This document shows positions 2-28,865 of a stretch of DNA of 38,646 nucleotides, piece by piece. The translations under genes were made by a program, and so were the position numbers. How positions within the stretch are numbered: position 1 is the stretch's first letter; each line of letters opens with the position of its first letter. Below the pieces are notes generated by a model. It worked only from the letters and a program-made list of their open reading frames with translations. It had not been told where the DNA came from and ran no database searches. The DNA is from Candidatus Doudnabacteria bacterium RIFCSPHIGHO2_01_FULL_50_11 (lineage in GTDB: Bacteria; Patescibacteriota; Doudnabacteria; UBA920; 2-01-FULL-50-11), in assembly GCA_001777585.1 (NCBI GenBank), contig MFEO01000003.1, positions 1 through 38,646 of the forward strand, in the 5' to 3' direction.

Positions 2-304
2 CCGGCCGTATCCCAGCTGCTCTACGAAAAAGGGATTCTCCTGGTGCCCGATTTCATTGCGAACGCCGGCGGGCTGATCAATGTGGCAGACGAATTACTG
101 CAAGGCGGATACAATCGAGAACGGGTTATTTCCGGAATAGAGGAACTTAAGAGGACCCTAGATCAAGTTTTGCGTCGTTCTGAACAGCTGCATCGTCCGC
201 CCGACCGGATCGCATTGGACATGGCGCAACATGTTATTGGTCTGCAGAAAAAGGCAGAGCCGAGAGGGAGGCCGGTGAAAACACGGGTAGAAAGCGCAGT
301 ATGA
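2..304 (+). CDS. Leu/Val/Phe-type amino-acid dehydrogenase (Glu/Leu/Phe/Val dehydrogenase family), C-terminal fragment; the 5' end lies outside the window
   Basis: The frame is open from base 2. The translation ...LYEKGILLVPDFIANAGGLINVADELLQGGYNRERV... matches the conserved C-terminal NAD-domain block of leucine/phenylalanine dehydrogenases (NAGGxINVADEL..GYNRER). The stop TGA at 302-304 overlaps the next ATG (ATGA). Confidence 0.8.
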   Translation, partial: PAVSQLLYEKGILLVPDFIANAGGLINVADELLQGGYNRERVISGIEELKRTLDQVLRRSEQLHRPPDRIALDMAQHVIGLQKKAEPRGRPVKTRVESAV

Positions 305-1773
305 ATGCCGCGCTCTTTGATACGAAAACTTATGTCACGGTTTCAGAGCGGTCTTGGGAATTGAGCCGCCGCAAGACCCTTCGCGGCGTCTGGGACCGTA
401 TGAGGAAAGGAGTTCCTGCATATAGGCTTTTTTTGAAAAACGCCGGAACAGCCTCAGGCAGAGCTCCCAGGATTTCCGATCCAGGCGGGATAGGTTCGAT
501 GGACAAACGGAATTATTTTTTTCGTTACCCGATGGAGAAACAGTTTTACCGTGACGCTCTCAATCGCGATTCTTATGTCGCGACAGCAACCTCCGGTTCT
601 ACCGGAACGCCCGCCTATTTTTTCCGAACAGACGAAGTAGACCGGCGGTATGCGCAAATCGCTTCATGGTTTCTAAGCCTCGGACCTAAAGGTTCAACGC
701 TCTTAATTGACTGTTTCGGGATGGGGGTATGGATCGGCGGTTTGATCACTTATCAGGCTTTCAGGTATGCCGGACTCTCCGGTTTTCCCGTAAGCATTAT
801 CGCCCCTGGCGTTAATAAAAAGGAGATCTTTGAGGTATTGCGCAGGCTCGCGCCGCAGTTCCGATCAGTGATACTGGCCGGTTATCCTCCTTTTCTTAAG
901 GATATCTTAGACGGAGCGAAGTCAGAAAAGGTTTTTTTTCGTCCGGGACAGCTGCGTTTGGTTTTTGCGGCTGAAGGATTCAGCGAAGAATTCAGAAATT
1001 ACATGGTTGAGGCGGGCAGGCTGAGATCCCCGTATTTGGATACGATGAATATTTATGGTAGCGCTGAGCTGGGGGCAATGGCGTTTGAGACTCCTTACAC
1101 GATCTTGGTAAGACGTCTTGCAAAAACCGCATCGGAAGTCCTGGATAGACTGTTTTTGCCTAAGCGGCTTCCCACACTCGCGCAATATGACCCCCGCCAT
1201 ATCGTGTTTGAATCACTTGAAGGAAAAATTCTAATTACCGGAGATAGTGCTATGCCATTTTTCAGATATAAAATAGGAGATGTCGGATCAACAATGACAT
1301 CGTCAGAAATCGGGGATGTCTTCGAAGAAGCGGGAATCAAGCTCAATCGGAAACTCTCGGCCGCGGGAATTCCTAAAACCCACTTGCCGCTTGTCGCAGT
1401 CTACGAGCGGGAAGATTTTTCAACGAAGCTCTATGGCGCAATCGTTTATCCCGCGCATATACGCGATGCCCTCAGCGCAAGAGCTTTGCGGGAGGCGATT
1501 ACGGGAAAATTTGCGATGAGGACAGGATTTGATAGATGGCAGAATCAGTTTCTTGAGATCTTGGTAGAACTTAAGCCGGGTAAAAACCCAGCCCGCATCC
1601 TCAAGAAGCGGGTTACAGGCGAGATTGTGGATGGGCTTTTGAGGCAGAATGCCGAGTACCGCAATAATTATCAGTCGATTCCCAGAAAAGTCACCCCTCG
1701 TGTCACGTTATTACCGCATGGAGATGAACGGTATTTCCGGACAGGCATCAAACAAAAATGGGTCATTAAATAA
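301..1773 (+). CDS. ANL-superfamily adenylate-forming enzyme, PaaK / coenzyme F390 synthetase / CapK-like (COG1541-like)
   Basis: 490-aa ORF. It carries the P-loop-like TSGSTGTP (around nt 589-612), YGSAELG, FRYKIGD and a C-terminal Lys-rich GIKQKW. This motif order and the length are typical of phenylacetate-CoA-ligase-like enzymes. The start overlaps the upstream stop by 4 nt. Confidence 0.7.
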   Translation: MNAALFDTKTYVTVSERSWELSRRKTLRGVWDRMRKGVPAYRLFLKNAGTASGRAPRISDPGGIGSMDKRNYFFRYPMEKQFYRDALNRDSYVATATSGSTGTPAYFFRTDEVDRRYAQIASWFLSLGPKGSTLLIDCFGMGVWIGGLITYQAFRYAGLSGFPVSIIAPGVNKKEIFEVLRRLAPQFRSVILAGYPPFLKDILDGAKSEKVFFRPGQLRLVFAAEGFSEEFRNYMVEAGRLRSPYLDTMNIYGSAELGAMAFETPYTILVRRLAKTASEVLDRLFLPKRLPTLAQYDPRHIVFESLEGKILITGDSAMPFFRYKIGDVGSTMTSSEIGDVFEEAGIKLNRKLSAAGIPKTHLPLVAVYEREDFSTKLYGAIVYPAHIRDALSARALREAITGKFAMRTGFDRWQNQFLEILVELKPGKNPARILKKRVTGEIVDGLLRQNAEYRNNYQSIPRKVTPRVTLLPHGDERYFRTGIKQKWVIK

Positions 1774-1777
1774 TATC

Positions 1778-2983
1778 ATGAATCAAGCCCTTCGCTCACT
1801 CCGTCTAAAATTAAGCGCCGTCCGAAATGCGGAGGTCGCGAAACGCCCTTTGATCTTGCAGCTTGGCAAAACAGCTGACCGGAAGGTTTTGAGCGCACTT
1901 ATGCGCCAACGGGCCGTGCGTCAGGTTTCTGATGACTACCCAGAGCAGCTGCGGGAGCTCTTTGCAATCGAACATCCCAAACTTGTTTATCAACCAGATT
2001 TTGAAGCGAGTTTTCAAGATTACCTCCGTTCGCAATCAGGCAAAAAGGATTTGATGGAACAGGGAAACTGGGTGTACTATCCGTGGCTCTCGACTCTGGT
2101 GCACCTTCTTCCGGAGCGCGATTTCCAGCGCGTGCGGACTGCCCGGAATCGGCATTTGATTACTGAAGTGGAGCAGAAGCTGTACTATGATGCAGTGGTA
2201 GGGATCGCAGGCTTAAGCGTGGGCAACAGCGTTATCTTAGCCATCGTTCTTCAAGGCGGCGCGAAAAGGATTCGATTGGCGGATTTCGACAGGCTTGCCT
2301 TATCTAACCTCAATCGGATCAGGGCCGGCGTAGAAAGCCTAGGGCTGGAGAAGGTCTTAATGACTGCCCGGCAGATTTACGCGCTCAATCCATATGCGTC
2401 GTTGGAACTATACGGTGAAGGATTGACGGAGAAGAATATCAAAGACTTTTTTTCCGCAAAACCAAAACTGACGCTTTTAATCGACGAGCTGGACAACATA
2501 GCGATGAAATATTTGATCCGTGAACATGCCCGCAAAAACCATCTCCCAGTTATTATGGGTGCGGACAACGGAGACAATGTAGTCGTGGATATTGAACGCT
2601 ACGATCTAAATTCCAAAACGCCTTTTTTCCATGGCCGTTTAGGCAGGGTCAATTACCAAATGCTCAAAAATTTGGACAAGTTTGGCATTGGCAGGACTAT
2701 AACCCGCCATATCGGTCCGGAAAATGTCACTGAGCGTATGCAACAATCACTGCTTGACATGGGTCGCGGCATCGTTTCCTGGCCGCAGCTTGGAGGAGCG
2801 GCGCTTCTCAACGGTAGCGCATTGGCATATTGCGCCCGTAAAATAGCGACAGCACAGCCCGTAGAAAAGAAGCGCTCGCTCATATCTTTGGACGCGGCAC
2901 TCGATCCGCAATACACTGGCAACGCAGCAAAAAGGCGGAGGCGCAGAATAGTGAAAGATTTCAAAAAATTATTCGGACTCTAA
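1778..2983 (+). CDS. ThiF/MoeB/HesA-family E1-like adenylyltransferase-fold protein (resembles the N-terminal half of Rv1355c/MoeY-type proteins)
   Basis: Rossmann block VVGIAGLSVGNSVILAIVLQGGAKRIRLADFDRLALSNLNRI (a GxxGxxxG variant followed by DxD...NLNR). It is preceded by WVYYPW...VHLLPE. I see no CxxC zinc pairs. I prefer ATG 1778 (4 nt after the ligase stop) to the ORF-track start at 1649, which would overlap the ligase by 125 nt. Confidence 0.7.
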   Translation: MNQALRSLRLKLSAVRNAEVAKRPLILQLGKTADRKVLSALMRQRAVRQVSDDYPEQLRELFAIEHPKLVYQPDFEASFQDYLRSQSGKKDLMEQGNWVYYPWLSTLVHLLPERDFQRVRTARNRHLITEVEQKLYYDAVVGIAGLSVGNSVILAIVLQGGAKRIRLADFDRLALSNLNRIRAGVESLGLEKVLMTARQIYALNPYASLELYGEGLTEKNIKDFFSAKPKLTLLIDELDNIAMKYLIREHARKNHLPVIMGADNGDNVVVDIERYDLNSKTPFFHGRLGRVNYQMLKNLDKFGIGRTITRHIGPENVTERMQQSLLDMGRGIVSWPQLGGAALLNGSALAYCARKIATAQPVEKKRSLISLDAALDPQYTGNAAKRRRRRIVKDFKKLFGL

Positions 2984-2988
2984 TCAAC

Positions 2989-4050
2989 ATGGAACAACAC
3001 ATCCGCAACATACTTGAAGGTGCCGCCACCGCTCCCTCAGGGGAGAATTGTCAGCCGTGGCATGTCGTTGTAAAAGACAACAGTCTGGAGATTTACAATG
3101 TTCCCGAACGGGACCTCTCCCTCTATAATGTCAATCAACTGGGCTCAATGACGGCACACGGCGCGTTTTTGGAGAGTTTGAAAATCGCGGCTTCGGCAGA
3201 AGGGCTCGAAGCGCGAGTCCGCTTGTTTCCGGACGCGTCTCAACCTACGCTTGTTGCTTTAGTGGATCTGGTACAAGCCGATATTTCAGCTGATCCGCTC
3301 GAAAAGTACTTGCGAATTCGCGCGACGAATCGTAAGCTTTACGATAAAGCGCCTGTAGATGCTGCCCAGTACGTACTTCTGAAAACAGCAGCAGATAGTG
3401 TAGCGAGCGTACGAACTTCCTTCATTGATGATCAGGCGCGGATAAAGGATTTATCCGACGCTTTCAGTCTGAACGAGCGTCTGCTTTTTGAGAACCGCGC
3501 TTTGCACGACTTCTTTTATTCTCACGTTCGTTGGACAGAAGAAGAGGATCGCAGGTATAAGACAGGGTTCTTCATCAAGACGCTCGAGCTTCGCGGTCCC
3601 CAGCAGCCAGCCTTCAAGCTTCTGCGCCGATGGGGACTTGCGCGTTTTGCCGCCCGCCTCGGTGTTTCGAAACAGATAGCAAAAGACAACGCTAAGACGT
3701 ATGCTGCCTCGGCCGTTCTGGCGGCATTTCTAGTTCGACAGAACCTGCCCGAAGATTTCGTGCACATAGGACGTGCGATGCAGCGCTTCTGGCTTACGTC
3801 AACCTCGCTGGGGCTTGCCGTGCAACCTATGACCGGAGTTTTATTCTTTATGCAGCGCTTGCAGGCTGAATCCGGCCAGGCGTTTGCGAGTTCGCAGCAG
3901 GCACTCATACGCTCGTCATTCGCCCGTATCTCGTCCGCTTTCGGCGCGGGCGGGGACACTCTGGCGGTGGTGCTCCGAATAGGCCGCGCCGCTGCACCGA
4001 GCGCTCGTTCTTCGCGTTTTAGCGTAGACGAGATAGTGAGCGAAGAATAG
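2989..4050 (+). CDS. Nitroreductase-superfamily FMN oxidoreductase, double-length (Acg / Rv1355c C-terminal-like) form
   Basis: The N-terminal APSGENCQPWH motif is the nitroreductase-fold signature. The 353-aa length fits single-chain tandem nitroreductase proteins. RATNRKLY is present. The start is 5 nt after the ThiF-like stop. Confidence 0.7.
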   Translation: MEQHIRNILEGAATAPSGENCQPWHVVVKDNSLEIYNVPERDLSLYNVNQLGSMTAHGAFLESLKIAASAEGLEARVRLFPDASQPTLVALVDLVQADISADPLEKYLRIRATNRKLYDKAPVDAAQYVLLKTAADSVASVRTSFIDDQARIKDLSDAFSLNERLLFENRALHDFFYSHVRWTEEEDRRYKTGFFIKTLELRGPQQPAFKLLRRWGLARFAARLGVSKQIAKDNAKTYAASAVLAAFLVRQNLPEDFVHIGRAMQRFWLTSTSLGLAVQPMTGVLFFMQRLQAESGQAFASSQQALIRSSFARISSAFGAGGDTLAVVLRIGRAAAPSARSSRFSVDEIVSEE

Positions 4051-4066
4051 TCAGGATTTTCTTACA

Positions 4067-5731
4067 ATGGATCTGCTTCAAAATATTAGTCTCGTACCCG
4101 TCGGAACGGTCATTGCAGCGATCGGTATTTTAGGTTTTGTCGTATTTTTCAATAATTCCAAGAGCGCCACCAATGTGGCGTTTTTGTTTTTTTCACTCGT
4201 TGCTATTTTCTGGAACGGCCTCAACTACCTGGCTTATCAATTTGAATCTCTGACCATTGTTTTGTGGCTCTTGCGGTTCGTCTTGTTTTTTGCAGTGTGG
4301 TACTGTTTCAGCCTTTTGCATTTTTTCTACGTATTCCCGAAAGAGATCACAGTTTTTTCCCGAAGCTATAAATTTGTGCTGCTTCCGATGACAGCAATCG
4401 GCTCTCTTCTCACCCTGACTCCATGGGCAATAGAGAAAATAAACCAGCTTCCTTCTGACGGCTCCGGCGCACCCGATGTATTGGGCCCCGTCATGCCGGT
4501 ATTTGGCATATTGGTCTCAGTCCTCATCACAGCCGGTATTACGTTGCTCGTAAAAAAAATGCTTGCTTCGCGGGACACGGTTCGGACTCAATATAGGTTG
4601 ATCCTCATCGGAACTATCATTACGTTTTCCTGCTACATTGCTTTCAATTTCGTACTGCCAGTATTCTTTGACACGATTATTTTCATACCATTAGGCGCAT
4701 TTTTCACATTTCCTTTCGTTGCTTTCACCAGCTACGCGGTGATCAAGCATAAATTGATGAACGTGAAGGTGATTTCTTCTGAGATCTTAGTCTTCGTGCT
4801 TTCCTTAGTCAGCCTGTTACAGGTTTTGCTCTCCACCGGCCTCAATGCAATCATTTTCCGGTCAATGGTTTTTATCCTCGTCTTGGTGTTCGGCATGCTC
4901 TTGATCAGGAGCGTAGTTCGGGAGGTCAAACAGCGCGAGCAGTTGCAGATTTTGGATAAGCAGCTGGAAGAAGCGAACAAACAGCTGAAGGCCCTCGATC
5001 GGGCGCGCGCGGAATTTATTTCACTTGTCAGCCATCAGATGAGAACGCCCCCCTCGACGATCAAGTGGTATCTGGCGAGCATTCTCGAGGGGGATTTTGG
5101 CGAAACGAGCAAAGACCTGCACGATGCGCTTGAAAGGCTGAATATCACCAACAACGCGCAGATTTCGTTGATAGAGGATCTCTTGAACGTGTCCCGCATC
5201 GAACGGGGGAAAATGGAATTTACCTATGCCGAGACCGACATTGTGAAATTAACGGAGATAAGCGTTCAGGTGCTCCTGCCGGCGGCTGTAACTAAAAACC
5301 TGAAATTGATTTTCAAAAAGCCCAGCGTGAAGATCCCGCTTCTGACCATCGATAAAGAGAAGGTCAGGCAAGTGATTAATAATTTGATCGATAACGCTAT
5401 CAAATACACGAGGTCAGGGTCGGTGACGGTGGAGGTAAAGAAGACTTCCGGAGAAGTTCGAGTGAGTGTCGCCGATACCGGCAAGGGGATTCGTCCCGAG
5501 GAAGCGGGCAGGATTTTCGACAAGTTTGGACGGGCCAAAGACTCGAGCAATTACGCCGCTGGCCTTGGGCTTGGTCTCTTCGTGGCAAAAGTCATCATGG
5601 CCCAACACCACGGCAAGATCTGGGCCGAAAGCGCAGGCGAGGGCAAGGGTTCGAAATTCAGTATTGCTCTACCGATAGCATCAATTGACCAGAAGAGTAC
5701 CACCTATGACCTCGTGACCCAGCGCGGCTAG
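4067..5731 (+). CDS. Sensor histidine kinase with an N-terminal polytopic (about 8-9 TM) sensor domain; no adjacent response regulator
   Basis: The first roughly 280 aa are successive hydrophobic helices, followed by a coiled-coil. The H-box is FISLVSHQMRTPPSTI, the N-box NLIDNAIKYT, G1 DTGKGI and G2 GLGLGL. The start is 16 nt after the nitroreductase stop. Confidence 0.9.
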   Translation: MDLLQNISLVPVGTVIAAIGILGFVVFFNNSKSATNVAFLFFSLVAIFWNGLNYLAYQFESLTIVLWLLRFVLFFAVWYCFSLLHFFYVFPKEITVFSRSYKFVLLPMTAIGSLLTLTPWAIEKINQLPSDGSGAPDVLGPVMPVFGILVSVLITAGITLLVKKMLASRDTVRTQYRLILIGTIITFSCYIAFNFVLPVFFDTIIFIPLGAFFTFPFVAFTSYAVIKHKLMNVKVISSEILVFVLSLVSLLQVLLSTGLNAIIFRSMVFILVLVFGMLLIRSVVREVKQREQLQILDKQLEEANKQLKALDRARAEFISLVSHQMRTPPSTIKWYLASILEGDFGETSKDLHDALERLNITNNAQISLIEDLLNVSRIERGKMEFTYAETDIVKLTEISVQVLLPAAVTKNLKLIFKKPSVKIPLLTIDKEKVRQVINNLIDNAIKYTRSGSVTVEVKKTSGEVRVSVADTGKGIRPEEAGRIFDKFGRAKDSSNYAAGLGLGLFVAKVIMAQHHGKIWAESAGEGKGSKFSIALPIASIDQKSTTYDLVTQRG

Positions 5732-5759: not shown

Positions 5760-5788
5760 CAACACTTTGTCGAACAAGGTGTTGTTTT
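5760..5788 (+). terminator. Rho-independent terminator after the histidine kinase gene
   Basis: CAACACTTTGT-cga-ACAAGGTGTTG forms an 11-bp stem (one G-U pair) with a 3-nt loop. It is followed by TTTT (5785-5788). Confidence 0.7.
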
Positions 5789-7208: not shown

Positions 7209-7217
7209 TGATAGTAT
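7209..7217 (+). promoter_or_regulatory. Extended -10 promoter element TGaTAGTAT upstream of pyrF, preceded by a T8 tract
   Basis: A TGn+TAGTAT motif. A T-rich tract (7202-7209) lies immediately upstream. The predicted leader contains a 7-bp hairpin, TCAGCGG...CCGCTGA (7224-7248). Confidence 0.45.
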
Positions 7218-7273
7218 GTTCTGTCAGCGGTTTAGTTTCTTCCGCTGAATATTGAAAAGGCGAAGAAGGGGAA

Positions 7274-8077
7274 ATGAAAGAGAAAATTATAGTTGCTCTG
7301 GACGTATCAACTGTGGATGAGGCGTTGTCGCTAAGTTCACAGCTGAGTGACCACGTAGGCGGTTTCAAACTGGGATTCGAGTTTTTCTACTCAACGCTGG
7401 CCTCGCTTATGCTGGATCCCATGGTTGACGCGGTTACCAGCTTACACAAGGCTCGCCAGCTTTTTGAGCAGCTTGCCGGCCGGGTGTTTCTGGACGTCAA
7501 GTTCGAAGACATTCCGGAGACAGTGAAGAAAGCCGCCCGAACTCTTGCGAGGTTCCGACCCAAGTTCATCAATCTCCATGCGGCCGGCGGGAAGAAGATG
7601 ATGCTGGCCGCAAAAGAAGGCCTTATTGAAGCTGGGCTTGGAGACATTCCTGTACTTGCAGTCACCGTTCTCACGAGCTTGGATTTCCAAGCACTCTTGG
7701 AGATAGGAGTTTGCAGCAGTTACGGCAATATGTCGGAAGGCGACGGAGTTGAGGAGATTCGAGCTCACGTCATTACGCGAGCCATGCTCGCGAAAAAGTG
7801 CGGTCTGGCCGGAGTGATTGCTTCTGCGCAGGAAGCTCCATTCATTAGACGGATGTGCGGTGACGACTTTCTGATAGTCACTCCAGGTATCCGAACCGCC
7901 TGGGCAACGTGGGCGGGCAGTGCCGATCAGGCACGAATACTCACGCCGCAACTGGCGATCGAGGGTGGGAGTGATTATTTGGTTATCGGACGACCGATTG
8001 TCGACACCCCGGAGTCGGAAGGTGGCCCCGTGGCAACAGTAAAGCGAATTGTAGCCGAGCTGTCGCAGTCCTATTAA
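7274..8077 (+). CDS. pyrF: Orotidine 5'-phosphate decarboxylase
   Basis: Motifs IIVALDV, FKLG, FLDVKFEDIPETV (the DxKxxDIxxT motif), TPGIR, ADQARILTP and VIGRPI. Confidence 0.85.
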   Translation: MKEKIIVALDVSTVDEALSLSSQLSDHVGGFKLGFEFFYSTLASLMLDPMVDAVTSLHKARQLFEQLAGRVFLDVKFEDIPETVKKAARTLARFRPKFINLHAAGGKKMMLAAKEGLIEAGLGDIPVLAVTVLTSLDFQALLEIGVCSSYGNMSEGDGVEEIRAHVITRAMLAKKCGLAGVIASAQEAPFIRRMCGDDFLIVTPGIRTAWATWAGSADQARILTPQLAIEGGSDYLVIGRPIVDTPESEGGPVATVKRIVAELSQSY

Positions 8078-17001: not shown

Positions 17002-18051
17002 ATGGGTTTGGTATGTGTCGCCTTGATCGTGATTGCCGCGAGCGCGCTTGTGGTTCTGCAGCATCGGTCAGAATCTTTGCGCGAATCTGTCAGTCAATTA
17101 AATACAGTGTCCGAGTGGCAGACATATCGCAACACCAGCCTTGGATTTGAAATTCGCCATCCTGTCGATTGGGCGGTGACCGCGGGAGAGTCAGGGAGCG
17201 AAGCATGGCTCATTGAGAATGGCAGCAACTCGACATCACGCGGGGAGATCTATATCAGTGTTCAGAAAAATATCGATTCACTTTCGCTGGTAAAGCTATC
17301 GCAATCCGAAAAAGACCGGGAAGGCGGGTATAGTATTTTGAAATCGTATTATGACCCGGACAAGCAAATCGAAATCGACGGGGAAACTGCAATTCAGATG
17401 CGCATACTCAAGCCTGACACTCCGCCGATGGTCTACGATAAAACATGGGTTGGGACGCTCGTCAAGACAACGGTTTTCGTCTCCAGCGGCAACATTTTCA
17501 CTATACAACTGACCTCGCCCCGCGATGCTGAAAAGAACGAGAAATTATACGATCAGGTCCTCGCGACCTTCAAATTCATTAGTCAGCAAGCCACGACCGA
17601 TATAGCAGGTTGGAAAACTTATCGGAATGAAATAGATGGATTTGAAATACAGTATCCGGCGACGGCTGTCACAACAACACAGAATACTGTCAACCATTTG
17701 GCGGTTGCCACGAATAAGCAGTGTGTGTCTATAAGTCCTTATAATAGTGGAAACGAATACGTAGGTTGCCAGGAGATAGAGGCGTGGACAGATCAGGTGA
17801 AGGCCAATTTCGAAGGCGGCACGACTAGGGTCTTGTTGGATTCCTGGGCAGGGGAAGAGTATAACTTCACAACGCCGCAAGATTATATGATCAATGATGT
17901 TCGTATACACATACCCCAGGGTGAACTCTATGCACAGGTTTTTCGTGGAGGCACGTGGTATAAGGTTCATCTTCGCTATCATTTAGATGAGCAGCAAAAA
18001 GGAGAGGAGCTTTTTAATCAAATCATATCTACCTTCAAATTCACAAAGTAG
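17002..18051 (+). CDS. Membrane-anchored or secreted protein of unknown function made of two tandem copies of a W-x-T-Y-R-N...T-F-K-F module
   Basis: The N-terminal hydrophobic anchor is LVCVALIVIAASALVVL. Module 1 runs WQTYRNTSLGFEIRHP...VLATFKF and module 2 runs WKTYRNEIDGFEIQYP...IISTFKF. The stop TAG abuts the pgk ATG directly. Confidence 0.7.
   Translation: MGLVCVALIVIAASALVVLQHRSESLRESVSQLNTVSEWQTYRNTSLGFEIRHPVDWAVTAGESGSEAWLIENGSNSTSRGEIYISVQKNIDSLSLVKLSQSEKDREGGYSILKSYYDPDKQIEIDGETAIQMRILKPDTPPMVYDKTWVGTLVKTTVFVSSGNIFTIQLTSPRDAEKNEKLYDQVLATFKFISQQATTDIAGWKTYRNEIDGFEIQYPATAVTTTQNTVNHLAVATNKQCVSISPYNSGNEYVGCQEIEAWTDQVKANFEGGTTRVLLDSWAGEEYNFTTPQDYMINDVRIHIPQGELYAQVFRGGTWYKVHLRYHLDEQQKGEELFNQIISTFKFTK
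17116..18042 (+). repeat. Protein-level tandem domain duplication (module 1 at 17116-17577, module 2 at 17611-18042)
   Basis: Both modules open with W-[QK]-T-Y-R-N-x3-G-F-E-I-x-[HY]-P and close with [LI]-[AS]-T-F-K-F. The interiors have diverged, so this is an old duplication and not a DNA repeat. Confidence 0.7.
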
Positions 18052-20589: not shown

Positions 20590-22170
20590 ATGGAGAAGAA
20601 AAAATTAGTCGTTCTCACAGTTTTGGATGGTTGGGGGATAGCTCCTCCCGGCGACGGGAATGCCATCGCATCCGCAAAAAAAACAAATTATAATCGTTTT
20701 CTCAAGGATTTCCCAACAAGCCAACTTTCTGCCTCGGGACGCGATGTCGGGTTGAAAGAGGACGAACCGGGTAATTCGGAAGCGGGTCATGAAAATATGG
20801 GCGCCGGGCGGACAATTGAACAAGATAAAATCCTAATTTCGGAAAGCATCCGGGACGGTACTTTCTTCAAAAACGCAGCTTTCGTGGAAGCGCTTAATCA
20901 CGCGAAGAAAAATCGTAGTTCCGTGCACCTGATCGGCTTGTTGTCGGACGAGCGTTCGGGACATGTCGAGCCTGAACACGCCGAGGCGCTATTGTTGTTT
21001 TTCAAACGAAATAATTTCGAGAGAGTTTACCTCCATATTCTCACTGATGGTAGAGATACTCCTCCAAAATCAGCTGAACAATTCCTTAAACGGATGATTC
21101 TGGCTATGAATAGCATCGGGATTGGAACTGTAGTGACGGTTGCCGGAAGATACTATGCCATGGATCGCGCTCATAATTATTCCCGGGTCTGGCGAGCGTA
21201 TGAGGCCATGGTATACGGACGAGGACGGGTAGCCGAGAATGCGTATCAGGCGATCCAGAAGGCTTATAATCGAGGCGAGACCGACGAATTTATTGCTCCC
21301 ACTGTTATTCCTCAGCCTCGGAAAACCGGGGGATCTGCGCCTGTTACCATCAAGGAAGGCGATTCGGTCATCTTCTACAATCTTCGCTCTGATCGGGCTC
21401 GACAGCTGACCCGTGTCTTCCTGCAGCCCGATTTCATCGATGGGGAGGCGGGAGAAGTGTGGGAATTTAAAAAATTCGAAGATTTATTTTTCGTCACTAT
21501 GACTGAATTCTCAAGCGATTTCCCCGCGCTTATCGCTTATCCGACGCGGTTAGTATTCAATTGCCTGCCGGCTTATTTGGAGAAATTCAACGATGTTCAT
21601 CAGCTCTATATTTCGGAATCGGAAAAATTCGCACACGTAACGTATTTTTTCCACGGCAATACTAATCGCGTTTTCCGTAACGAAAAGCGGGTGAGGATTG
21701 ATTCCCGACCCGTTGCCACCTTTGATCTGGAACCAAAAATGAGCGCCCCCGAGATTACTGATCAGCTCGTCGACAACTTGCGTACAGGTTTGTACAATTT
21801 TTGCCTGGTCAATTTTCCTAATGCGGACATGTTGGGTCATACAGGAGACATCAAGGCCGCGAAACTAGGGATTCAAGAGATCGACAAGCAACTCGGGCGT
21901 TTATGGGAAGCGGTGAGGGCCCAGCGCGGCGCAATGATTATCACCGGCGACCATGGTAACGCAGAAGAGATGATCGACCCTCATACAAAAGAGCAGCTCC
22001 AAGAACATTCTCGTAATCCAGTGCCGTTCATATTGTTAGATGAGAACCTTCGCGGCCAATCCGTAAATTTGCGAACCGGGACACTACGGGATATCGCGCC
22101 AACAGTGTTGGACTTAATGGGTCTTTCAAAGCCGAAAGAGATGCTTGGCGTTAGCCTCTTGCGGCACTAG
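20590..22170 (+). CDS. gpmI: 2,3-bisphosphoglycerate-independent phosphoglycerate mutase, copy 1 (variant GGVHSH region)
   Basis: Motifs VLDGWG, NSEAGHENMGAGR (phospho-Ser motif), TDGRDT, NADMLGHTG, GDHGNAE and HSRNPVP. The usual LLSDGGVHSH block reads LLSDERSGHVEPEH. Confidence 0.9.
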   Translation: MEKKKLVVLTVLDGWGIAPPGDGNAIASAKKTNYNRFLKDFPTSQLSASGRDVGLKEDEPGNSEAGHENMGAGRTIEQDKILISESIRDGTFFKNAAFVEALNHAKKNRSSVHLIGLLSDERSGHVEPEHAEALLLFFKRNNFERVYLHILTDGRDTPPKSAEQFLKRMILAMNSIGIGTVVTVAGRYYAMDRAHNYSRVWRAYEAMVYGRGRVAENAYQAIQKAYNRGETDEFIAPTVIPQPRKTGGSAPVTIKEGDSVIFYNLRSDRARQLTRVFLQPDFIDGEAGEVWEFKKFEDLFFVTMTEFSSDFPALIAYPTRLVFNCLPAYLEKFNDVHQLYISESEKFAHVTYFFHGNTNRVFRNEKRVRIDSRPVATFDLEPKMSAPEITDQLVDNLRTGLYNFCLVNFPNADMLGHTGDIKAAKLGIQEIDKQLGRLWEAVRAQRGAMIITGDHGNAEEMIDPHTKEQLQEHSRNPVPFILLDENLRGQSVNLRTGTLRDIAPTVLDLMGLSKPKEMLGVSLLRH

Positions 22171-22179
22171 CGAAATCTT

Positions 22180-23796
22180 ATGAAACTAGTTTTCAAAAAA
22201 ATACTCCTCATCGTGCTGGACGGATTTGGCGTCGCATCAGCGACTCCGGGTAATGCAATTTGTCGCGCGTCAGCTTCAACCTTCGATTCACTCGTGAACC
22301 GCTATCCGTCGTTGACCCTGCAAGCAGCGGGACCGAATGTGGGATTGCCCTGGGGAGAGCCGGGGAATTCAGAAGTAGGTCACATGTGTTTGGGTGCTGG
22401 CAGGATAGTGCTTCAAGACTTACCGAGAATCGATCGCGAGATAACGTCTGGATCATTTTTCAAAAACGAGGCCCTTATAAGCGCGATAGAACATGCACTG
22501 ACCAACCATTCAGCTCTCCACCTGATTGGCTTGTTGGGTTCAGGGGGCGTTCATGCGTCCCAATTGCACCTCTATGCTCTTCTTGATCTGGCGGTGTCGA
22601 AGGGATTGAAGGAAATATACATTCACGCCATCACTGATGGGCGTGACACTCCTCAGGACTCCGGTAGAGAAGCGGTCAAGGAATTGGAGAAGAAAATTTT
22701 GCAAAACGGCGGCGGAAGAATCGCCTCTGTCACGGGAAGATTTTTCGCAATGGATCGGGCGCAACATTGGGATTTAACCGAACTGGCATTCCGAGCCATG
22801 GTTTTAGGCCAAGCACAGACAGCCAGCTCAGCGCTTGGGGCAGTAGATGAGTATTATCGCGTTTCAGTCTTCGACGAGACGATTCCTCCCACCCTGATTG
22901 TCCCTCCCGGAACCCAGCCTATTGGTATCAAGAGCTCTGACTCGGTCATCTGCTTCAATTTCCGCGCCGACCGCATGATCCAGTTGACGACAGCCTTAAC
23001 CGATCCCTCCAGGTGCAAATTTTCCACGGCTTATCCACGTATTCTCAATATTGAAGTTGTGACGATGACAGAGTATAGTCGGGATTTGGAAGTCAAAGTG
23101 GCTTTTCCAAAGATCGTAGTACCCGAAACTATCAGTGAGGTGCTTGCTGCAAAAAGCCTGAAACAGTACCATGTTTCAGAGACAGAAAAATTCCCGCACG
23201 TGACTTATTTTTTCAGCAATGGCCGGGAAGAGCCAGGCACGGGGGAAGTTTGGGATAAGGTGTCCTCCAACACTTTGTACGAAGAACGTTATCAGAATGT
23301 TCCGCAGATGTCCGCACCCGAGCTCACTCAGAGGCTCATAGAGGCGATCGATAAAGATTTTGATTTTTATCTCCTCAATTTTGCGAACCCCGACATGGTC
23401 GGGCACACAGGGAATCTTACCGCTTCAATCGCGGCAGTAAAGGCGATTGACGAATGCCTGCGGAGAATTTACCAAGTGACCGAGAAGCATCCGGAGCTTC
23501 TGATAATGATTACCGCGGATCACGGGAACATAGAGGAAGTACATGAAGTGCATAGCGGGAGAATCCATAAGTCGCACACCACCAATCCGGTGCCGCTGCT
23601 CTTGATTGGCCGGGGACTCGAACTACCCCGACCCCGGAAGCCTGGCTATCTCTATCTGGCAACTCAAGTTCCGGAAGGACTATTGTCCGACGTAGCACCT
23701 ACCTTGCTTGATATCATGCACCTTCCTAAACCCCAGCAAATGACCGGTATCAGCCTGCTGCCGACCTTGATTCGCCAGTTGAGGAAGCCGCAGTAA
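22180..23796 (+). CDS. gpmI: 2,3-bisphosphoglycerate-independent phosphoglycerate mutase, copy 2 (more canonical)
   Basis: Motifs VLDGFG, NSEVGHMCLGAGR, LLGSGGVHAS, TDGRDT, NPDMVGHTG, ADHGNIE and HTTNPVP. The start is 9 nt after copy 1. Confidence 0.9.
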   Translation: MKLVFKKILLIVLDGFGVASATPGNAICRASASTFDSLVNRYPSLTLQAAGPNVGLPWGEPGNSEVGHMCLGAGRIVLQDLPRIDREITSGSFFKNEALISAIEHALTNHSALHLIGLLGSGGVHASQLHLYALLDLAVSKGLKEIYIHAITDGRDTPQDSGREAVKELEKKILQNGGGRIASVTGRFFAMDRAQHWDLTELAFRAMVLGQAQTASSALGAVDEYYRVSVFDETIPPTLIVPPGTQPIGIKSSDSVICFNFRADRMIQLTTALTDPSRCKFSTAYPRILNIEVVTMTEYSRDLEVKVAFPKIVVPETISEVLAAKSLKQYHVSETEKFPHVTYFFSNGREEPGTGEVWDKVSSNTLYEERYQNVPQMSAPELTQRLIEAIDKDFDFYLLNFANPDMVGHTGNLTASIAAVKAIDECLRRIYQVTEKHPELLIMITADHGNIEEVHEVHSGRIHKSHTTNPVPLLLIGRGLELPRPRKPGYLYLATQVPEGLLSDVAPTLLDIMHLPKPQQMTGISLLPTLIRQLRKPQ

Positions 23797-25802: not shown

Positions 25803-25819
25803 GTAAAACTCGAGTAAAT

Positions 25820-26203
25820 ATGAAAACATCTAAGATTCTCATCGTTTTTCTGTTACTTCTCGTCATAGCGGCAGGAGTCTGGGCGGCTTGGTTTTTTTTC
25901 GCACCGACGCGTGTCATAAAATTTCAAGCGGGTACCGTATTTGAGCGTTCCGGACTTCGCGTCCAAGCTGATCGGATCGACAGATGGGTCTGTGCCAAAC
26001 CAAAAGCGGACGGACAGTGTGCTGATGAGGATCTTGAATGGGGCGTTCAGTTGACGATTCGCAATGTAAAAACCGGCGAGTCCGCATACACATATTTAGG
26101 AGAGCAATTGCACCCGGAGTATGAAGCCCTTGGGCTGCACCTTAGCTTGCGTTCTGTAACGGCGAATCCGCCAACTGCCGTGATTGGGATTACGAATAAA
26201 TAG
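25820..26203 (+). CDS. Small N-terminally anchored (or signal-peptide) protein of unknown function
   Basis: 127-aa ORF. The N-terminal hydrophobic segment is ILIVFLLLLVIAAGVWAAWFFFA. It has two Cys residues. It sits between acs and korA with 17-nt and 24-nt gaps. Confidence 0.55.
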   Translation: MKTSKILIVFLLLLVIAAGVWAAWFFFAPTRVIKFQAGTVFERSGLRVQADRIDRWVCAKPKADGQCADEDLEWGVQLTIRNVKTGESAYTYLGEQLHPEYEALGLHLSLRSVTANPPTAVIGITNK

Positions 26204-26227
26204 TGTTGCCCAAAATACTCGTTTCTT

Positions 26228-27952: not shown

Positions 27953-27977
27953 ACTAAGGAGAATCCGCTGAAAAGAA

Positions 27978-28865
27978 ATGATTCCTAATCCCCAGCTTAC
28001 CAATCCGCTCCGTGCCGAGGATTTCAACTCGGAACATTTTCCGACTTGGTGCCCCGGTTGTGGCGATTTCGGCATTTGGGCGTCTCTTAAAAATGCTTTA
28101 GTCAAATTAAATTTGCCACCGCACAGAGTAGTGCTCGTCTTCGGTATCGGCTGTTCCGGTAATTTTTCCAGCTTTGTAAAAGGCAATGTCTTTCACTCAC
28201 TGCACGGGCGGGCACTTCCTGCTGCGATCGGCGCCAAGCTGGCAAATCACGAATTGGATGTGATTGTGATTGGTGGCGATGGGGATGGCTTTGCTGAAGG
28301 GCTCAATCATTTCATTCAGACGGTGCGCTCCAACATCAATATTACTTACGTTGTACACGACAACCACGTGTATTCTCTCACGGTGGGTCAAGCCTCCCCG
28401 ACTTCGATGAAAGGCTTCAAAGGGAAGGCGCATCCAGAGGGAGCTTTCGAATATCAGCTCAATCCCATCTCTCTCGCCATCACCTCCGGCGGCACCTTTG
28501 TTGCACGCGGGTTTGCGGGCGACATTCCTCATCTCTCGGACCTGATTGTACAGGGGGTCAAGCACCGGGGATTTTCCTTCATCGACGTCATGCAGCCCTG
28601 TCCTACCTTCAATCCTGAGTTGTCGTATGATTGGTATAGGCAGAGGATATACAAGCTCGAAACCACCGGTTATATGCCGGACAACCATTTTAAGGCATGG
28701 GAGATTTCTCAGCAGCCGTTTGATGAAAAGATACCCCTAGGGGTTTTCTATCGGGAAGAGCGTGACATTCTCGAAGATCATTTTCCACAACTGAGCCGAG
28801 CTCCTCTAGTCAAGCATGATTTGTCTAAAATCGACATCACGTCTTTGCTTGAAGAATTTATGTAA
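27978..28865 (+). CDS. korB: 2-oxoacid:ferredoxin oxidoreductase, beta (TPP/[4Fe-4S]) subunit
   Basis: Motifs WCPGCGDFGI, GIGCSG and GGDGDG (TPP-binding motif). Confidence 0.9.
   Translation: MIPNPQLTNPLRAEDFNSEHFPTWCPGCGDFGIWASLKNALVKLNLPPHRVVLVFGIGCSGNFSSFVKGNVFHSLHGRALPAAIGAKLANHELDVIVIGGDGDGFAEGLNHFIQTVRSNINITYVVHDNHVYSLTVGQASPTSMKGFKGKAHPEGAFEYQLNPISLAITSGGTFVARGFAGDIPHLSDLIVQGVKHRGFSFIDVMQPCPTFNPELSYDWYRQRIYKLETTGYMPDNHFKAWEISQQPFDEKIPLGVFYREERDILEDHFPQLSRAPLVKHDLSKIDITSLLEEFM

What the first reader, a model, noticed from the sequence alone, without database searches (positions are those of the whole stretch)
301..4050. Uncharacterised three-gene cassette: PaaK/F390-synthetase-like adenylating enzyme + stand-alone ThiF/E1-like protein + double-size nitroreductase-fold protein
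The three ORFs are packed with 4-nt and 5-nt gaps, so they are almost certainly co-translated.

The cassette combines two unrelated ATP-dependent carboxylate-activating folds. One is ANL (TSGSTGTP, YGSAELG, FRYKIGD). The other is E1-like (GIAGLSVGNS...DFDRLALSNLNRI). Both sit next to an FMN-oxidoreductase fold (ENCQPWH).

An E1-like protein paired with a nitroreductase-type dehydrogenase is the partner logic of azole-forming RiPP machinery (McbB/McbC, SagC/SagB). Here there is no YcaO, no visible short precursor ORF, no transporter and no peptidase. It is therefore not a canonical TOMM cluster.

I do not know of a characterised pathway that joins this pair to a PaaK-like ligase. Keeping about 3.7 kb for this in an otherwise housekeeping-only, apparently reduced genome suggests a real function. 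Candidates are activation, ligation and oxidation of a small acid, a cofactor-like molecule or a protein C-terminus.
Basis: partly seen in the sequence, partly recalled or inferred. Interest (0 to 1): 0.8.

Follow-up and report, generated by a model that had tools for sequence, protein, structure and literature searches.

The report
Oxazolone-type pathway with ligase in CPR bacteria
The three genes are part of a five-to-six-gene operon, conserved across hundreds of tiny "candidate phyla radiation" bacteria, whose ThiF + flavin-oxidase pair matches the recently characterised oxazolone synthetases, but with an ATP-dependent ligase in place of the usual acyltransferase and a membrane sensor kinase attached.

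Summary
Three tightly packed genes lie at 301-1773, 1778-2983 and 2989-4050, with 4-nt and 5-nt gaps.

The ThiF and double-nitroreductase proteins are not an uncharacterised pair. They are the two halves of the Rv1355c family (NCBIfam NF005901). Members of that family and their relatives (TrzS, the split TyzB/TyzC, and OxzB) are experimentally shown oxazolone synthetases. They cyclise an N-acyl amino acid with ATP and desaturate it with FMN and O2.

Four features are new here:
- **No N-acyltransferase.** The usual N-acyl-amino-acid synthase gene is absent. A distinct, distant PaaK-family adenylating ligase sits in its place, next to ThiF in 57 of 58 related loci, and is sometimes fused to it.
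- **An amino-acid/2-oxo-acid enzyme upstream.** In 42 of 76 loci one lies directly upstream of the ligase (44 have one in the cluster). It is a Leu/Phe/Trp-type dehydrogenase, a class I/II aminotransferase or a class IV aminotransferase, never two kinds.
- **A 7TM histidine kinase.** It closes the operon in 50 of 58 loci, whatever the gene order.
- **Distribution.** The block occurs in at least 592 species-level genomes, almost all Patescibacteria.

The window cuts the operon inside the dehydrogenase gene.

The most likely function is synthesis of an N-acyl (dehydro)amino-acid/oxazolone small molecule, possibly a signal. I rate it a new variant of a known kind.

The parts
2..304 (+). 3' end of an ELFV-family (Leu/Phe/Trp-dehydrogenase-type) amino-acid dehydrogenase gene, cut by the window start. 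Its stop overlaps the ligase start (ATGA).
   Evidence: PF00208 and the ScyB model hit the fragment. The full-length 366-aa gene is seen in the near-identical strain at L095:7487-8587. Its best PDB matches are Leu DH 1.6e-66, Trp DH 1.2e-61 and Phe DH 5e-49, against Glu DH at about 1e-24.
301..1773 (+). Distant PaaK-family (ANL superfamily) adenylate-forming ligase, 490 aa. Proposed to be the acylating or acyl-activating enzyme of the pathway.
   Evidence: No Pfam hit; PaaK and F390 NCBIfam models score only about 24 bits. The AF2 model has pLDDT 90, and Foldseek matches PaaK1/2 and BT_0428 at about 1e-22. A family profile hits PaaK2 at 4e-13. Invariant residues lie in core ANL-type motifs (SGST 98-101, YG 252-253, D327, R370, K484; motif assignment is mine). 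It sits next to ThiF in 57/58 loci. Fusions with ELFV DH and/or ThiF exist.
1778..2983 (+). Stand-alone ThiF/E1-like adenylyltransferase of the Rv1355c (TrzS) clade, 401 aa. Predicted ATP-dependent cyclase.
   Evidence: NF005901 at 4.8e-93 over profile positions 6-347. 36% identity (E 9e-62) to a PGAP-named Rv1355c family protein. Shared motifs GLSVG, LADFDRLxLSNLNR, D-E-x-D, VDxERYD and WPQL. AF2 pLDDT 86, with Foldseek hits to ThiF, MoeB, TcdA and AclA.
2989..4050 (+). Monomeric double-nitroreductase-fold flavin-dependent oxidase (FDO), 353 aa. Predicted C-alpha/C-beta desaturase.
   Evidence: NF011424 at 1.1e-63; NF005901 at 3.2e-57 over profile positions 375-718; Acg family at 6e-44. PDB hit to Acg 2ymv at 2.6e-07. 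27% identity to the C-half of an Rv1355c family protein. Present in 53/58 loci, and fused to ThiF in L071 and L085.
4067..5731 (+). Sensor histidine kinase with a membrane-embedded multi-TM (HisKA_7TM) input domain, 554 aa, 16 nt after the FDO gene.
   Evidence: PF16927, PF00512 and PF02518. About 8 hydrophobic segments in residues 1-285 with no large loop. Present in 50/58 loci. Always last and co-directional in at least 8 different gene orders, with a median gap of 49 nt.
5760..5784 (+). Terminator-like hairpin plus T-run, 29 nt after the kinase stop codon. Probable operon end.
   Evidence: The total number of such sites in the region is not above chance, so only its position is suggestive.

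Best explanation
The region is the core of a conserved operon of Patescibacteria (CPR). It probably makes a small N-acyl-(dehydro)amino-acid or oxazolone compound by a variant of the oxazolone-synthetase pathway.

Proposed steps:
1. **Dehydrogenase or aminotransferase.** A Leu/Phe/Trp-type amino-acid dehydrogenase interconverts a hydrophobic or aromatic amino acid and its 2-oxo acid. In other lineages a class I/II or class IV aminotransferase takes its place. The enzyme type is shown; its direction and role are inferred.
2. **Ligase.** The PaaK-family ligase adenylates a carboxylic acid. The acid could be an aryl or alkyl acid, or the 2-oxo acid made in step 1. The ligase then delivers the acyl group to the alpha-amino group of an amino acid, giving an N-acyl amino acid. 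This replaces the acyl-CoA-dependent N-acyltransferase (OxzA/TyzA/TrzA) of the known systems. This step is inferred.
3. **ThiF.** The ThiF protein adenylates the carboxylate of the N-acyl amino acid, and the amide oxygen closes a 5(4H)-oxazolone ring. This is inferred by homology to TrzS and TyzB, for which the reaction has been shown.
4. **FDO.** The nitroreductase-fold FMN oxidase desaturates C-alpha/C-beta. This is inferred by homology to TyzC and the TrzS C-domain.
5. **Kinase.** The co-transcribed multi-TM histidine kinase, with a nearby single-domain response regulator, senses either the product or a membrane or redox cue that controls it. The linkage is shown; the ligand is unknown.
For: **ThiF and FDO are the two halves of a characterised enzyme family**
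- They map onto complementary halves of the Rv1355c-family model (312.7 and 194.3 bits).
- They align with a PGAP-named family member at 36% and 27% identity, and the ATP-site motifs are shared.
- TrzS, TyzB/TyzC and OxzB are biochemically characterised as an ATP-dependent cyclase plus an O2-dependent desaturase of N-acyl aromatic amino acids.
- Both split and fused ThiF-FDO forms occur next to the ligase in CPR.

**The ligase is tied to ThiF**
- It is adjacent to ThiF in 57/58 loci, across at least 8 gene orders.
- Fusion proteins exist: ligase-ThiF, ThiF-ligase, ELFV-ligase and ELFV-ligase-ThiF.
- The triple fusion is an uninterrupted ORF found in two assemblies.

**No N-acyltransferase is present**
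- None occurs in the window, upstream in L095, or in the compact operons.

**The ligase is an adenylating enzyme of the right kind**
- It has the PaaK fold and invariant residues in core ANL-type motifs.
- Structural neighbours listed by Foldseek include McbA, titled an amide bond synthetase in its PDB entry, and AjiA1 and ClxA, which from memory act without CoA.
- A GH3-like ATP-dependent enzyme is known to replace an N-acyltransferase in N-acyl-ornithine synthesis.

**An amino-acid/2-oxo-acid enzyme is part of the pathway**
- Three non-homologous enzyme kinds occupy the slot directly upstream of the ligase, and never two together. One is present in the cluster in 44/76 loci, and directly upstream in 42 of them.

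**The closest non-CPR ThiF relatives pair with acyl-transfer enzymes**
- In Streptomyces the ThiF is translationally coupled to a GNAT. In Kitasatospora it sits next to a KAS III.

**The kinase is linked to the operon**
Against: - No product, substrate or activity is known for any CPR member.
- PaaK-family enzymes are mostly CoA ligases, and this organism does use CoA: it has an acetyl-CoA synthetase and a 2-oxoacid:ferredoxin oxidoreductase in the same window. The ligase could therefore simply make an acyl-CoA for an unlinked acyltransferase.
- The FDO is only 27% identical to the actinobacterial domain.
- The arginine preceding the APS(G)xNxQPW motif is not conserved in the CPR set. The residues mutated in TrzS (R540, Q651) could not be mapped.
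- The characterised FDOs need O2, whereas many CPR organisms are thought to be anaerobes.
- Ligase homologues outside CPR (Nonomuraea, Gemmatirosa, Cellvibrionaceae) have no ThiF or FDO neighbour.
- 32/76 loci have no dehydrogenase or aminotransferase next to the ligase.
Confidence: 0.6

Rival explanations
1. The end chemistry is the same (oxazolone or N-acyl dehydroamino acid), but the ligase is an ordinary acyl-CoA ligase. It activates an aryl or alkyl acid to its CoA thioester, and an unlinked N-acyltransferase then makes the N-acyl amino acid.
For: The closest structures are bona fide CoA ligases (PaaK1/2, BT_0428, 2-hydroxyisobutyryl-CoA ligase). The organism has CoA-dependent enzymes in the same window (acetyl-CoA synthetase at 23841-25802 and OFOR at 26228-28865).
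Against: No acyltransferase lies in or near the operon in the window, in L095, or in 58 related loci. The ligase is physically fused to ThiF and to the dehydrogenase in some lineages, which argues for consecutive steps. The scores against the PaaK and F390 equivalog models are far below cut-off (24 vs 646 bits).
Confidence: 0.2
2. The operon is a RiPP-like or protein-modifying system. The E1-like protein adenylates the C-terminus of a peptide or protein, and the nitroreductase-fold enzyme oxidises it (McbB/McbC- or SagC/SagB-style, or MccB/PaaA-style).
For: The ThiF model also matches the peptide-modifying enzymes PaaA and MccB (ranks 12-20). A confident extra N-terminal domain of about 110 residues is present.
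Against: There is no YcaO, precursor ORF, peptidase or transporter in the window, upstream in L095, or in related loci. The gene junctions are 4-16 nt, leaving no room for a precursor. The N-terminal region is shared with the small-molecule enzyme family Rv1355c/TrzS (NF005901 aligned from profile position 6). The ThiF-FDO family that has been characterised acts on small molecules.
Confidence: 0.05
3. The dehydrogenase or aminotransferase plus the PaaK-like ligase form an amino-acid salvage or fermentation route: aryl or branched-chain acid to acyl-CoA to 2-oxo acid to amino acid, as in the indolepyruvate-oxidoreductase-linked pathways of anaerobes. ThiF, FDO and the kinase would then be only neighbours or regulators.
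For: BT_0428-type PaaK homologues are among the best structural matches. An OFOR is encoded about 22 kb downstream. The dehydrogenase is of the Leu/Phe/Trp type.
Against: No OFOR or IOR lies in the operon in any locus examined. The ligase is more tightly linked to ThiF (57/58 loci) than to the dehydrogenase or aminotransferase (44/76 loci). Ligase-ThiF fusions exist.
Confidence: 0.08

Closest known systems
TyzB + TyzC (Rv2338c/Rv2337c) of Mycobacterium tuberculosis, the tyrazolone pathway (PMC10404671)
   Same: A split arrangement: a stand-alone ThiF-like ATP-dependent cyclase next to a stand-alone, roughly 350-aa monomeric nitroreductase-superfamily flavin-dependent oxidase, in one operon.
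   Different: The N-acyl amino acid there comes from TyzA, an acyl-CoA-dependent acyltransferase with an AHL-synthase/FeeM-like fold. Here no such gene is present. Instead there is a PaaK-family ligase, an amino-acid dehydrogenase and a 7TM histidine kinase. By sequence, the window proteins are nearer the Rv1355c model than any other NCBIfam model. TyzB and TyzC themselves were not compared here.
TrzS (Rv1355c) / OxzB, fused ThiF-FDO oxazolone synthetases (PMC12856293; bioRxiv 10.1101/2020.06.11.147165)
   Same: The window's ThiF and FDO cover profile positions 6-347 and 375-718 of the Rv1355c-family model. The ATP-site motifs are shared. Fused versions occur in some CPR relatives (L071, L085).
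   Different: The genes are split here. Identity is only 36% and 27% to a named family member. The partner is a ligase rather than TrzA/OxzA. The hosts are Patescibacteria rather than Actinomycetota or Pseudomonadota.
NasY-ThiF-nitroreductase(-methyltransferase) clusters for N-acyl dehydrotyrosines: stieleriacines, thalassotalic acids and kyonggic acids (PMC12479983)
   Same: ThiF plus nitroreductase in an operon-like arrangement. An optional methyltransferase is present, and a SAM-methyltransferase-like gene sits between the FDO and the kinase in some CPR loci. The end product may be the ring-opened N-acyl dehydroamino acid rather than the oxazolone.
   Different: Those clusters use an N-acyl amino acid synthase as the hallmark enzyme, and no ligase, dehydrogenase or kinase is reported.
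PaaK phenylacetate-CoA ligase and PaaK-family relatives (PDB 2y27, 2y4o, 4r1l; AjiA1 6wuq; ClxA 9s45)
   Same: The same two-domain ANL fold and nucleotide-binding motifs (Foldseek E about 1e-22; profile E 4e-13).
   Different: About 16-19% identity. About 60 residues longer. Far below the PaaK equivalog cut-off. No paa operon. Whether it uses CoA is unknown.
OlsH, a GH3-like ATP-dependent N-acyl-ornithine synthase (PMC12493201)
   Same: A precedent for what it may work like: an adenylate-forming enzyme that makes an N-acyl amino acid directly and replaces an acyltransferase (OlsB) in an otherwise known pathway.
   Different: A different branch of the adenylating enzymes (GH3, not PaaK), a different product (a membrane lipid), and no sequence relationship tested here.
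TcdA (CsdL), tRNA t6A dehydratase
   Same: The closest solved structure by sequence to the ThiF core (E 2.6e-08). It also closes an oxazolone-type ring by adenylating an N-carbamoyl amino-acid carboxylate (review PMC12596934).
   Different: It acts on tRNA, lacks the roughly 110-residue N-terminal domain and has no FDO partner.

Membership tests
Oxazolone synthetase system (OxzAB / TyzACB / TrzAS) | ThiF-family ATP-dependent cyclase of the Rv1355c/TyzB/OxzB clade | tested here: met
   NF005901 at 4.8e-93 (312.7 bits) over profile positions 6-347. 36% identity, E 9e-62, to the PGAP-named Rv1355c family protein at L088:4857-6983.
Oxazolone synthetase system (OxzAB / TyzACB / TrzAS) | Nitroreductase-superfamily flavin-dependent oxidase fused to, or directly adjacent to, the ThiF gene | tested here: met
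   There is a 5-nt gap to the ThiF gene. NF005901 at 3.2e-57 over positions 375-718, NF011424 at 1.1e-63, Acg family at 6e-44. Fused in L071 and L085.
Oxazolone synthetase system (OxzAB / TyzACB / TrzAS) | Conserved ATP-site aspartate of the ThiF domain (D217 in TrzS of M. smegmatis) | tested here: inconclusive
   The D-E-L-D-N aspartates (D236, D239) are invariant in 32 CPR homologues. D239 aligns with D202 of the TY66 family member. I did not have the M. smegmatis sequence, so the exact equivalence to D217 is inferred.
Oxazolone synthetase system (OxzAB / TyzACB / TrzAS) | FDO residues shown to matter in TrzS (R540, Q651) | tested here: inconclusive
   Two candidate arginines align between the window protein and TY66, but neither is conserved across the CPR set. 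The numbering could not be mapped.
Oxazolone synthetase system (OxzAB / TyzACB / TrzAS) | Adjacent N-acyl-amino-acid synthase / N-acyltransferase (OxzA, TyzA, TrzA, NasY) | tested here: not met
   No acyltransferase domain occurs in any of the 35 window ORFs scanned with Pfam, nor in the 7.4 kb upstream in L095. The compact operons leave no unassigned gene. tblastn with two Streptomyces GNATs found nothing significant in 1.3 Mb of loci, which is a weak test.
Oxazolone synthetase system (OxzAB / TyzACB / TrzAS) | Product is an N-acyl oxazolone or N-acyl dehydroamino acid | not testable with these tools
   This needs expression and LC-MS.
Rv1355c family protein (NCBIfam NF005901 equivalog) | A single polypeptide scoring at or above 476 bits | tested here: not met
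   The genes are split. The halves score 312.7 and 194.3 bits separately. The window proteins are homologues of the two domains, not a member of the fused equivalog.
Phenylacetate-CoA ligase PaaK (TIGR02155) | Score above the curated cut-off of 646.3 bits | tested here: not met
   24 bits, E 1.3e-05.
Phenylacetate-CoA ligase PaaK (TIGR02155) | ANL/PaaK two-domain fold with adenylation motifs | tested here: met
   Foldseek matches at 1.2e-22 to 2y27 and 1.0e-21 to 2y4o. Profile hit at 4.2e-13 to PaaK2. Invariant SGST, YG, D327, R370 and K484.
Phenylacetate-CoA ligase PaaK (TIGR02155) | Location in a paa catabolic operon | tested here: not met
   No paa genes occur in the window, L095 or related loci.
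TOMM / azole-forming RiPP cluster | YcaO cyclodehydratase and a short precursor gene near the E1-like and dehydrogenase genes | tested here: not met
   Absent from the window, from L095 upstream and from the related loci.
Two-component sensor kinase with HisKA_7TM input | PF16927 + HisKA + HATPase_c | tested here: met
   PF16927 at 31 bits (cut-off 28.6), PF00512 at 33.6 bits and PF02518 at 93.3 bits. Multi-TM profile.

The most novel reading that the evidence does not exclude
The operon is a self-contained signal synthase plus receptor module that is widespread in Patescibacteria. An oxazolone or N-acyl-dehydroamino-acid autoinducer would be built from an imported amino acid alone. The dehydrogenase or aminotransferase makes the 2-oxo acid. 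The ligase couples that 2-oxo acid to a second amino-acid molecule without CoA or fatty acids. ThiF and the FDO then cyclise and desaturate the product. The compound would be sensed in the membrane by the co-transcribed 7TM histidine kinase and relayed through a CheY-like single-domain regulator. This would be the first dedicated small-molecule signalling circuit of CPR bacteria, possibly used between episymbiont cells or towards the host. It would also give oxazolones a physiological role.
Probability: 0.2. Interest if true: 0.85.

Novelty: new variant of a known kind. Interest (0 to 1): 0.62.

Why it matters
CPR/Patescibacteria have very small genomes with few biosynthetic pathways and almost no recognised specialised metabolism. 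Yet this roughly 5.5-kb block is retained in at least 592 species-level genomes.

Linking it to the oxazolone synthetases gives these "hypothetical" or "ThiF family / phenylacetate-CoA ligase" annotations a testable chemistry.

It extends a pathway so far described, in the papers read here, only from Actinomycetota, Pseudomonadota and Planctomycetota. It also shows a non-orthologous replacement of the first enzyme, with an adenylating ligase in place of the acyl-CoA N-acyltransferase.

The physiological role of oxazolones is an open question (the authors of PMC12856293 speculate about signalling). The invariant coupling to a membrane sensor kinase here offers a direct handle on that question.

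Tried and rejected
**Searches that found nothing**
- A single-sequence PDB search with the ligase found nothing. A profile was needed.
- Pfam has no model for the ligase.
- No tRNA or Rfam element occurs in the window.
- PADLOC gave only weak generic domain hits, so a defence-system reading was dropped.
- A literature search for AclA, the top structural hit of the ThiF model, found nothing usable, so I attach no function to that match.

**Tests that were inconclusive or weak**
- Mapping TrzS residues R540 and Q651 onto the window FDO was inconclusive, because I had no M. smegmatis sequence and the candidate arginines vary in CPR.
- The gene downstream of the TY66 Rv1355c homologue, which I hoped was a TrzA, does not look like an acyltransferase. 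It was useless as a probe.

**Arguments I dropped**
- "CPR lack CoA, hence a CoA-independent ligase." The window itself encodes an acetyl-CoA synthetase and an OFOR.
- The promoter and terminator scans are not above chance overall. Only the hairpin after the kinase is mentioned.

**Contexts that did not help**
- Non-CPR ligase homologues (Nonomuraea, Gemmatirosa, Cellvibrionaceae) gave no ThiF or FDO context, so they say nothing about the coupling.

Full report
**1. The observation**

On the + strand, ORFs run 301-1773 (490 aa), 1649-2983 and 2989-4050 (353 aa). I read the junctions directly.
- The ligase ends TAA at 1771-1773. Then comes TATC, then ATG at 1778.
- The ThiF gene ends TAA at 2981-2983. 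Then comes TCAAC, then ATG at 2989.
- Homologues of the ThiF protein all start at the position of ATG 1778, not at the upstream ATG 1649. The product is therefore 401 aa, and the 4-nt and 5-nt gaps are right.

Two more junctions were not in the finding.
- The stop of an upstream gene overlaps the ligase start (gtATGAatg).
- A fourth downstream gene starts 16 nt after the nitroreductase stop.

**2. What the three proteins are**

*ThiF protein*
- It matches Pfam ThiF at 1.3e-16.
- Its strongest match is the NCBIfam equivalog "Rv1355c family protein" (NF005901), at 4.8e-93 and 312.7 bits over profile positions 6-347 of 722.

*Nitroreductase-fold protein*
- It matches the other half of the same model: positions 375-718, 3.2e-57, 194.3 bits.
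- It also matches a second ThiF-oxidase fusion family (NF011424, 1.1e-63) and the Acg family of FMN oxidoreductases (6e-44).
- Its only clear solved relative is Acg (2ymv).

*Comparison with a named family member*
- I compared both proteins with a PGAP-named Rv1355c family protein from a Mycolicibacterium plasmid (L088:4857-6983).
- The window ThiF is 36% identical over 294 residues (E 9e-62). The oxidase is 27% identical over 283 residues (E 5e-13).
- The distinctive ThiF motifs of that family are shared and nearly invariant in the CPR homologues: GLSVG in place of the usual GxGxxG, LADFDRLxLSNLNR, D-E-x-D, VDxERYD and WPQL.
- The AlphaFold model of the ThiF protein (pLDDT 86) matches the cores of AclA, ThiF, MoeB, TcdA/Tcd1, PaaA and MccB. 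It has a confident extra N-terminal domain of about 110 residues.

*Ligase*
- It has no Pfam match, and scores only about 24 bits against the PaaK and F390-synthetase models.
- Its AlphaFold model (pLDDT 90) is clearly a PaaK-family ANL enzyme. Foldseek gives E about 1e-22 to PaaK1, PaaK2 and BT_0428.
- Next come a "PaaK family AMP-ligase" (6six), AjiA1, 2-hydroxyisobutyryl-CoA ligase, ClxA and the amide-bond synthetase McbA.
- A profile of the family reaches PaaK2 at 4e-13.
- Invariant residues lie in what I take to be the core ANL motifs: SGST 98-101, YG 252-253, D327, R370 and K484.

**3. The ThiF + oxidase pair is a known enzyme system**

A full-text search for Rv1355c led to the relevant work.
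- OxzB of Pseudoalteromonas rubra is a ThiF-nitroreductase fusion. It converts N-acyl tyrosine, made by the acyltransferase OxzA, into tyrazolones.
- Rv1355c itself is TrzS. It makes N-acyl tryptazolones from the N-acyl-Trp produced by TrzA.
- Planctomycete and other producers of N-acyl dehydrotyrosines carry NasY + ThiF + nitroreductase, sometimes with a methyltransferase.

[quoted passage not shown] None of these papers mentions a ligase or Patescibacteria.

**4. The real unit and its conservation**

*Distribution of the ligase family*
- More than 1,200 homologues were found in the 5.8-billion-protein set. The closest named ones are from Doudnabacteria, Kaiserbacteria and "Patescibacteria group".
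- Among 1.84 billion representatives there are 403 clusters at E<=1e-30.
Nearly all of the best 80 are labelled as CPR lineages.

*Co-occurrence.* I mapped each component by tblastn in 84 non-redundant loci (the window, three look-up loci and the 80 loci of the scan). Among the 58 loci with enough flank:

| Component next to the ligase | Loci (of 58) |
|---|---|
| ThiF | 57 |
| Nitroreductase-fold oxidase | 53 |
| HisKA_7TM histidine kinase | 50 |

- The oxidase comes in two types: the window type, and a more Acg-like type.
- At least eight different orders of the biosynthetic genes occur. The kinase is always last and on the same strand, with a median gap of 49 nt.
- Two Magasanikbacteria loci carry ThiF and the oxidase as one 731-733-aa ORF.

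*The slot upstream of the ligase*
- It is filled by one of three non-homologous enzyme kinds: an ELFV dehydrogenase (33 loci), a HisC-like class I/II aminotransferase (8) or a class IV aminotransferase (3).
- Together these account for 44 of 76 loci with enough upstream sequence. In 42 of them the gene lies directly upstream of the ligase. Two kinds never occur together.
- The dehydrogenase belongs to the Leu/Phe/Trp branch. Its PDB matches are Leu DH 1.6e-66, Trp DH 1.2e-61 and Phe DH 5e-49, against Glu DH at about 1e-24. Its best NCBIfam model is the Trp dehydrogenase ScyB.

*Fusion proteins*
- Fusions exist for ELFV-ligase, ligase-ThiF, ThiF-ligase and ELFV-ligase-ThiF.
- The 1,242-aa triple fusion is an uninterrupted ORF in two assemblies. 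An oxidase gene lies upstream of it, and a hydrolase and the 7TM kinase lie downstream.

*What lies upstream of the window*
- A contig from a near-identical strain (98.1% DNA identity over 7.4 kb) shows it.
- It carries the full 366-aa dehydrogenase, an AT-rich 277-nt spacer, a divergent single-domain response regulator, and then an ECF sigma factor.
- There is no YcaO, no paa genes and no acyltransferase.

*The rest of the window*
- It is housekeeping: pyrimidine genes, adk, map, HtrA, glycolysis, acetyl-CoA synthetase, OFOR, recJ, murA-like, mreB and frr.

**5. How it most likely works**

*Shown*
- The identity of the folds.
- The homology of ThiF and the oxidase to the two domains of a biochemically characterised enzyme family.
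- The genetic coupling of dehydrogenase or aminotransferase, ligase, ThiF, oxidase and kinase, including protein fusions.

*Inferred*
- ThiF adenylates the carboxylate of an N-acyl amino acid and closes an oxazolone ring. The oxidase then desaturates it.
- The acyltransferase is absent, and the ligase is the gene most tightly tied to ThiF. The ligase is therefore the best candidate for making the N-acyl amino acid.
- It could do so directly through an acyl-adenylate. Precedents are OlsH in ornithine-lipid synthesis and McbA, titled an amide bond synthetase in its PDB entry. From memory, AjiA1 and ClxA also act without CoA. Alternatively it could act by way of an acyl-CoA.

*The dehydrogenase or aminotransferase*
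- Three unrelated enzymes fill the slot, and all of them interconvert an amino acid and its 2-oxo acid. That step therefore belongs to the pathway.
- I cannot tell whether it supplies the amino acid or the 2-oxo acid. The latter would let the cell build the whole molecule from one imported amino acid.

*The kinase*
- It has about eight membrane segments and no sizeable external loop. That fits sensing in the membrane.
- Whether its ligand is the product is unknown.

**6. Caveats**
- The organism clearly uses CoA, so a plain CoA-ligase role cannot be excluded.
- The oxidase is divergent, and I could not map the residues mutated in TrzS.
- The characterised oxidases need O2.
- Ligase homologues outside CPR have no ThiF or oxidase nearby. 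In Nonomuraea the ligase follows a kinase-regulator pair, and in a Cellvibrionaceae genome it sits near a short-chain dehydrogenase/reductase (SDR) and an esterase.
- The nearest non-CPR ThiF relatives are coupled to a GNAT or a KAS III. This fits the idea that this ThiF clade works on acylated substrates, but it is only suggestive.

**7. Verdict**
- The finding is real and the fold calls were good.
- The core chemistry is no longer unknown. This is an oxazolone-synthetase-type pathway.
- It is a new variant. A distinct PaaK-family ligase replaces the acyltransferase, and an amino-acid/2-oxo-acid enzyme and a dedicated 7TM sensor kinase are attached. The whole block is conserved across Patescibacteria.
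- I found no description of this variant in the literature I could search.

Noticed in passing
L095:6805-7209 (-) and 7210-7486 (upstream of window base 1 in a 98%-identical strain): A 134-aa single-domain (CheY-like) response regulator is transcribed divergently from the operon across a 277-nt AT-rich spacer. Similar stand-alone receivers lie next to the operon in 11/58 related loci. An ECF sigma factor and a 523-aa ORF with no domain hit lie further upstream.
   Followed up: partly
L093:6001-9729 and L094:819-4547: A 1,242-aa ELFV-dehydrogenase / ligase / ThiF triple-fusion ORF, identical in two assemblies, is followed by an alpha/beta-hydrolase and the 7TM kinase. Two-domain fusions (P0137, P0148, P0204) also exist.
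   Followed up: partly
L021, L044, L075 (GTP cyclohydrolase II); L045, L046, L055, L068 (ApbE); L021, L044, L046, L048 (S9 peptidase): Some CPR versions of the cluster have extra genes inserted among or beside the core genes: a riboflavin-pathway GTP cyclohydrolase II, an ApbE-type FMN transferase and a prolyl-oligopeptidase-family protein. The two flavin genes may relate to the FMN oxidase. This was not examined.
   Followed up: no
L034:5340-6281 and homologues in L035, L042, L045, L046, L060, L081: A roughly 310-aa SAM-methyltransferase-like gene sits between the oxidase and the kinase in several loci. This recalls the methyltransferase in the Stieleria N-acyl-tyrosine clusters.
   Followed up: partly
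L001:13420-17488: In a Doudnabacteria genome the operon lies directly upstream of heme-copper oxidase genes (COX2, COX1, COX3, COX4, UbiA). That is unusual for CPR, and it may matter given the O2 requirement of the known oxidases.
   Followed up: no
L091:5717-9389 (Nonomuraea gerenzanensis); L083:7878-14716 (Cellvibrionaceae MAG): Ligase homologues outside CPR (33% and 41% identity) lack ThiF or oxidase neighbours. In Nonomuraea the ligase directly follows a HisKA_3 kinase and a LuxR-type regulator. In the Cellvibrionaceae contig it sits between an unassigned ORF and an SDR, with a carboxylesterase upstream and a HisKA_3-type kinase 3.4 kb downstream.
   Followed up: partly
L087:6917-8715, L089:5989-7763, L090:5224-8108: The closest non-CPR relatives of the window ThiF (36-40% identity, on Streptomyces and Kitasatospora linear plasmids) overlap a GNAT gene or a KAS III gene and have no nitroreductase. 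These are possibly further uncharacterised variants of the acyl-amino-acid cyclase theme.
   Followed up: no
L011:2667-10148; L017 and L029: One locus carries two tandem ligase-ThiF pairs. Two others carry two or three tandem copies of the 7TM kinase, and in L017 each copy is followed by a response regulator.
   Followed up: no
window 20590-22170 and 22180-23796: Two tandem paralogues of cofactor-independent phosphoglycerate mutase lie inside a glycolysis gene run (GAPDH, PGK, enolase). A PsbP_2-like ORF (17002-18051) is inserted between GAPDH and PGK.
   Followed up: no
window 23841-28865: An acetyl-CoA synthetase and a two-subunit 2-oxoacid:ferredoxin oxidoreductase are present, so this small-genome organism does use CoA thioesters.
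   Followed up: partly
window 1-38646: Almost every gene is on the + strand. The only large minus-strand gene is a PEGA-domain protein at 31177-32469. Cumulative GC skew rises steadily across the window, consistent with a single replication arm.
   Followed up: no
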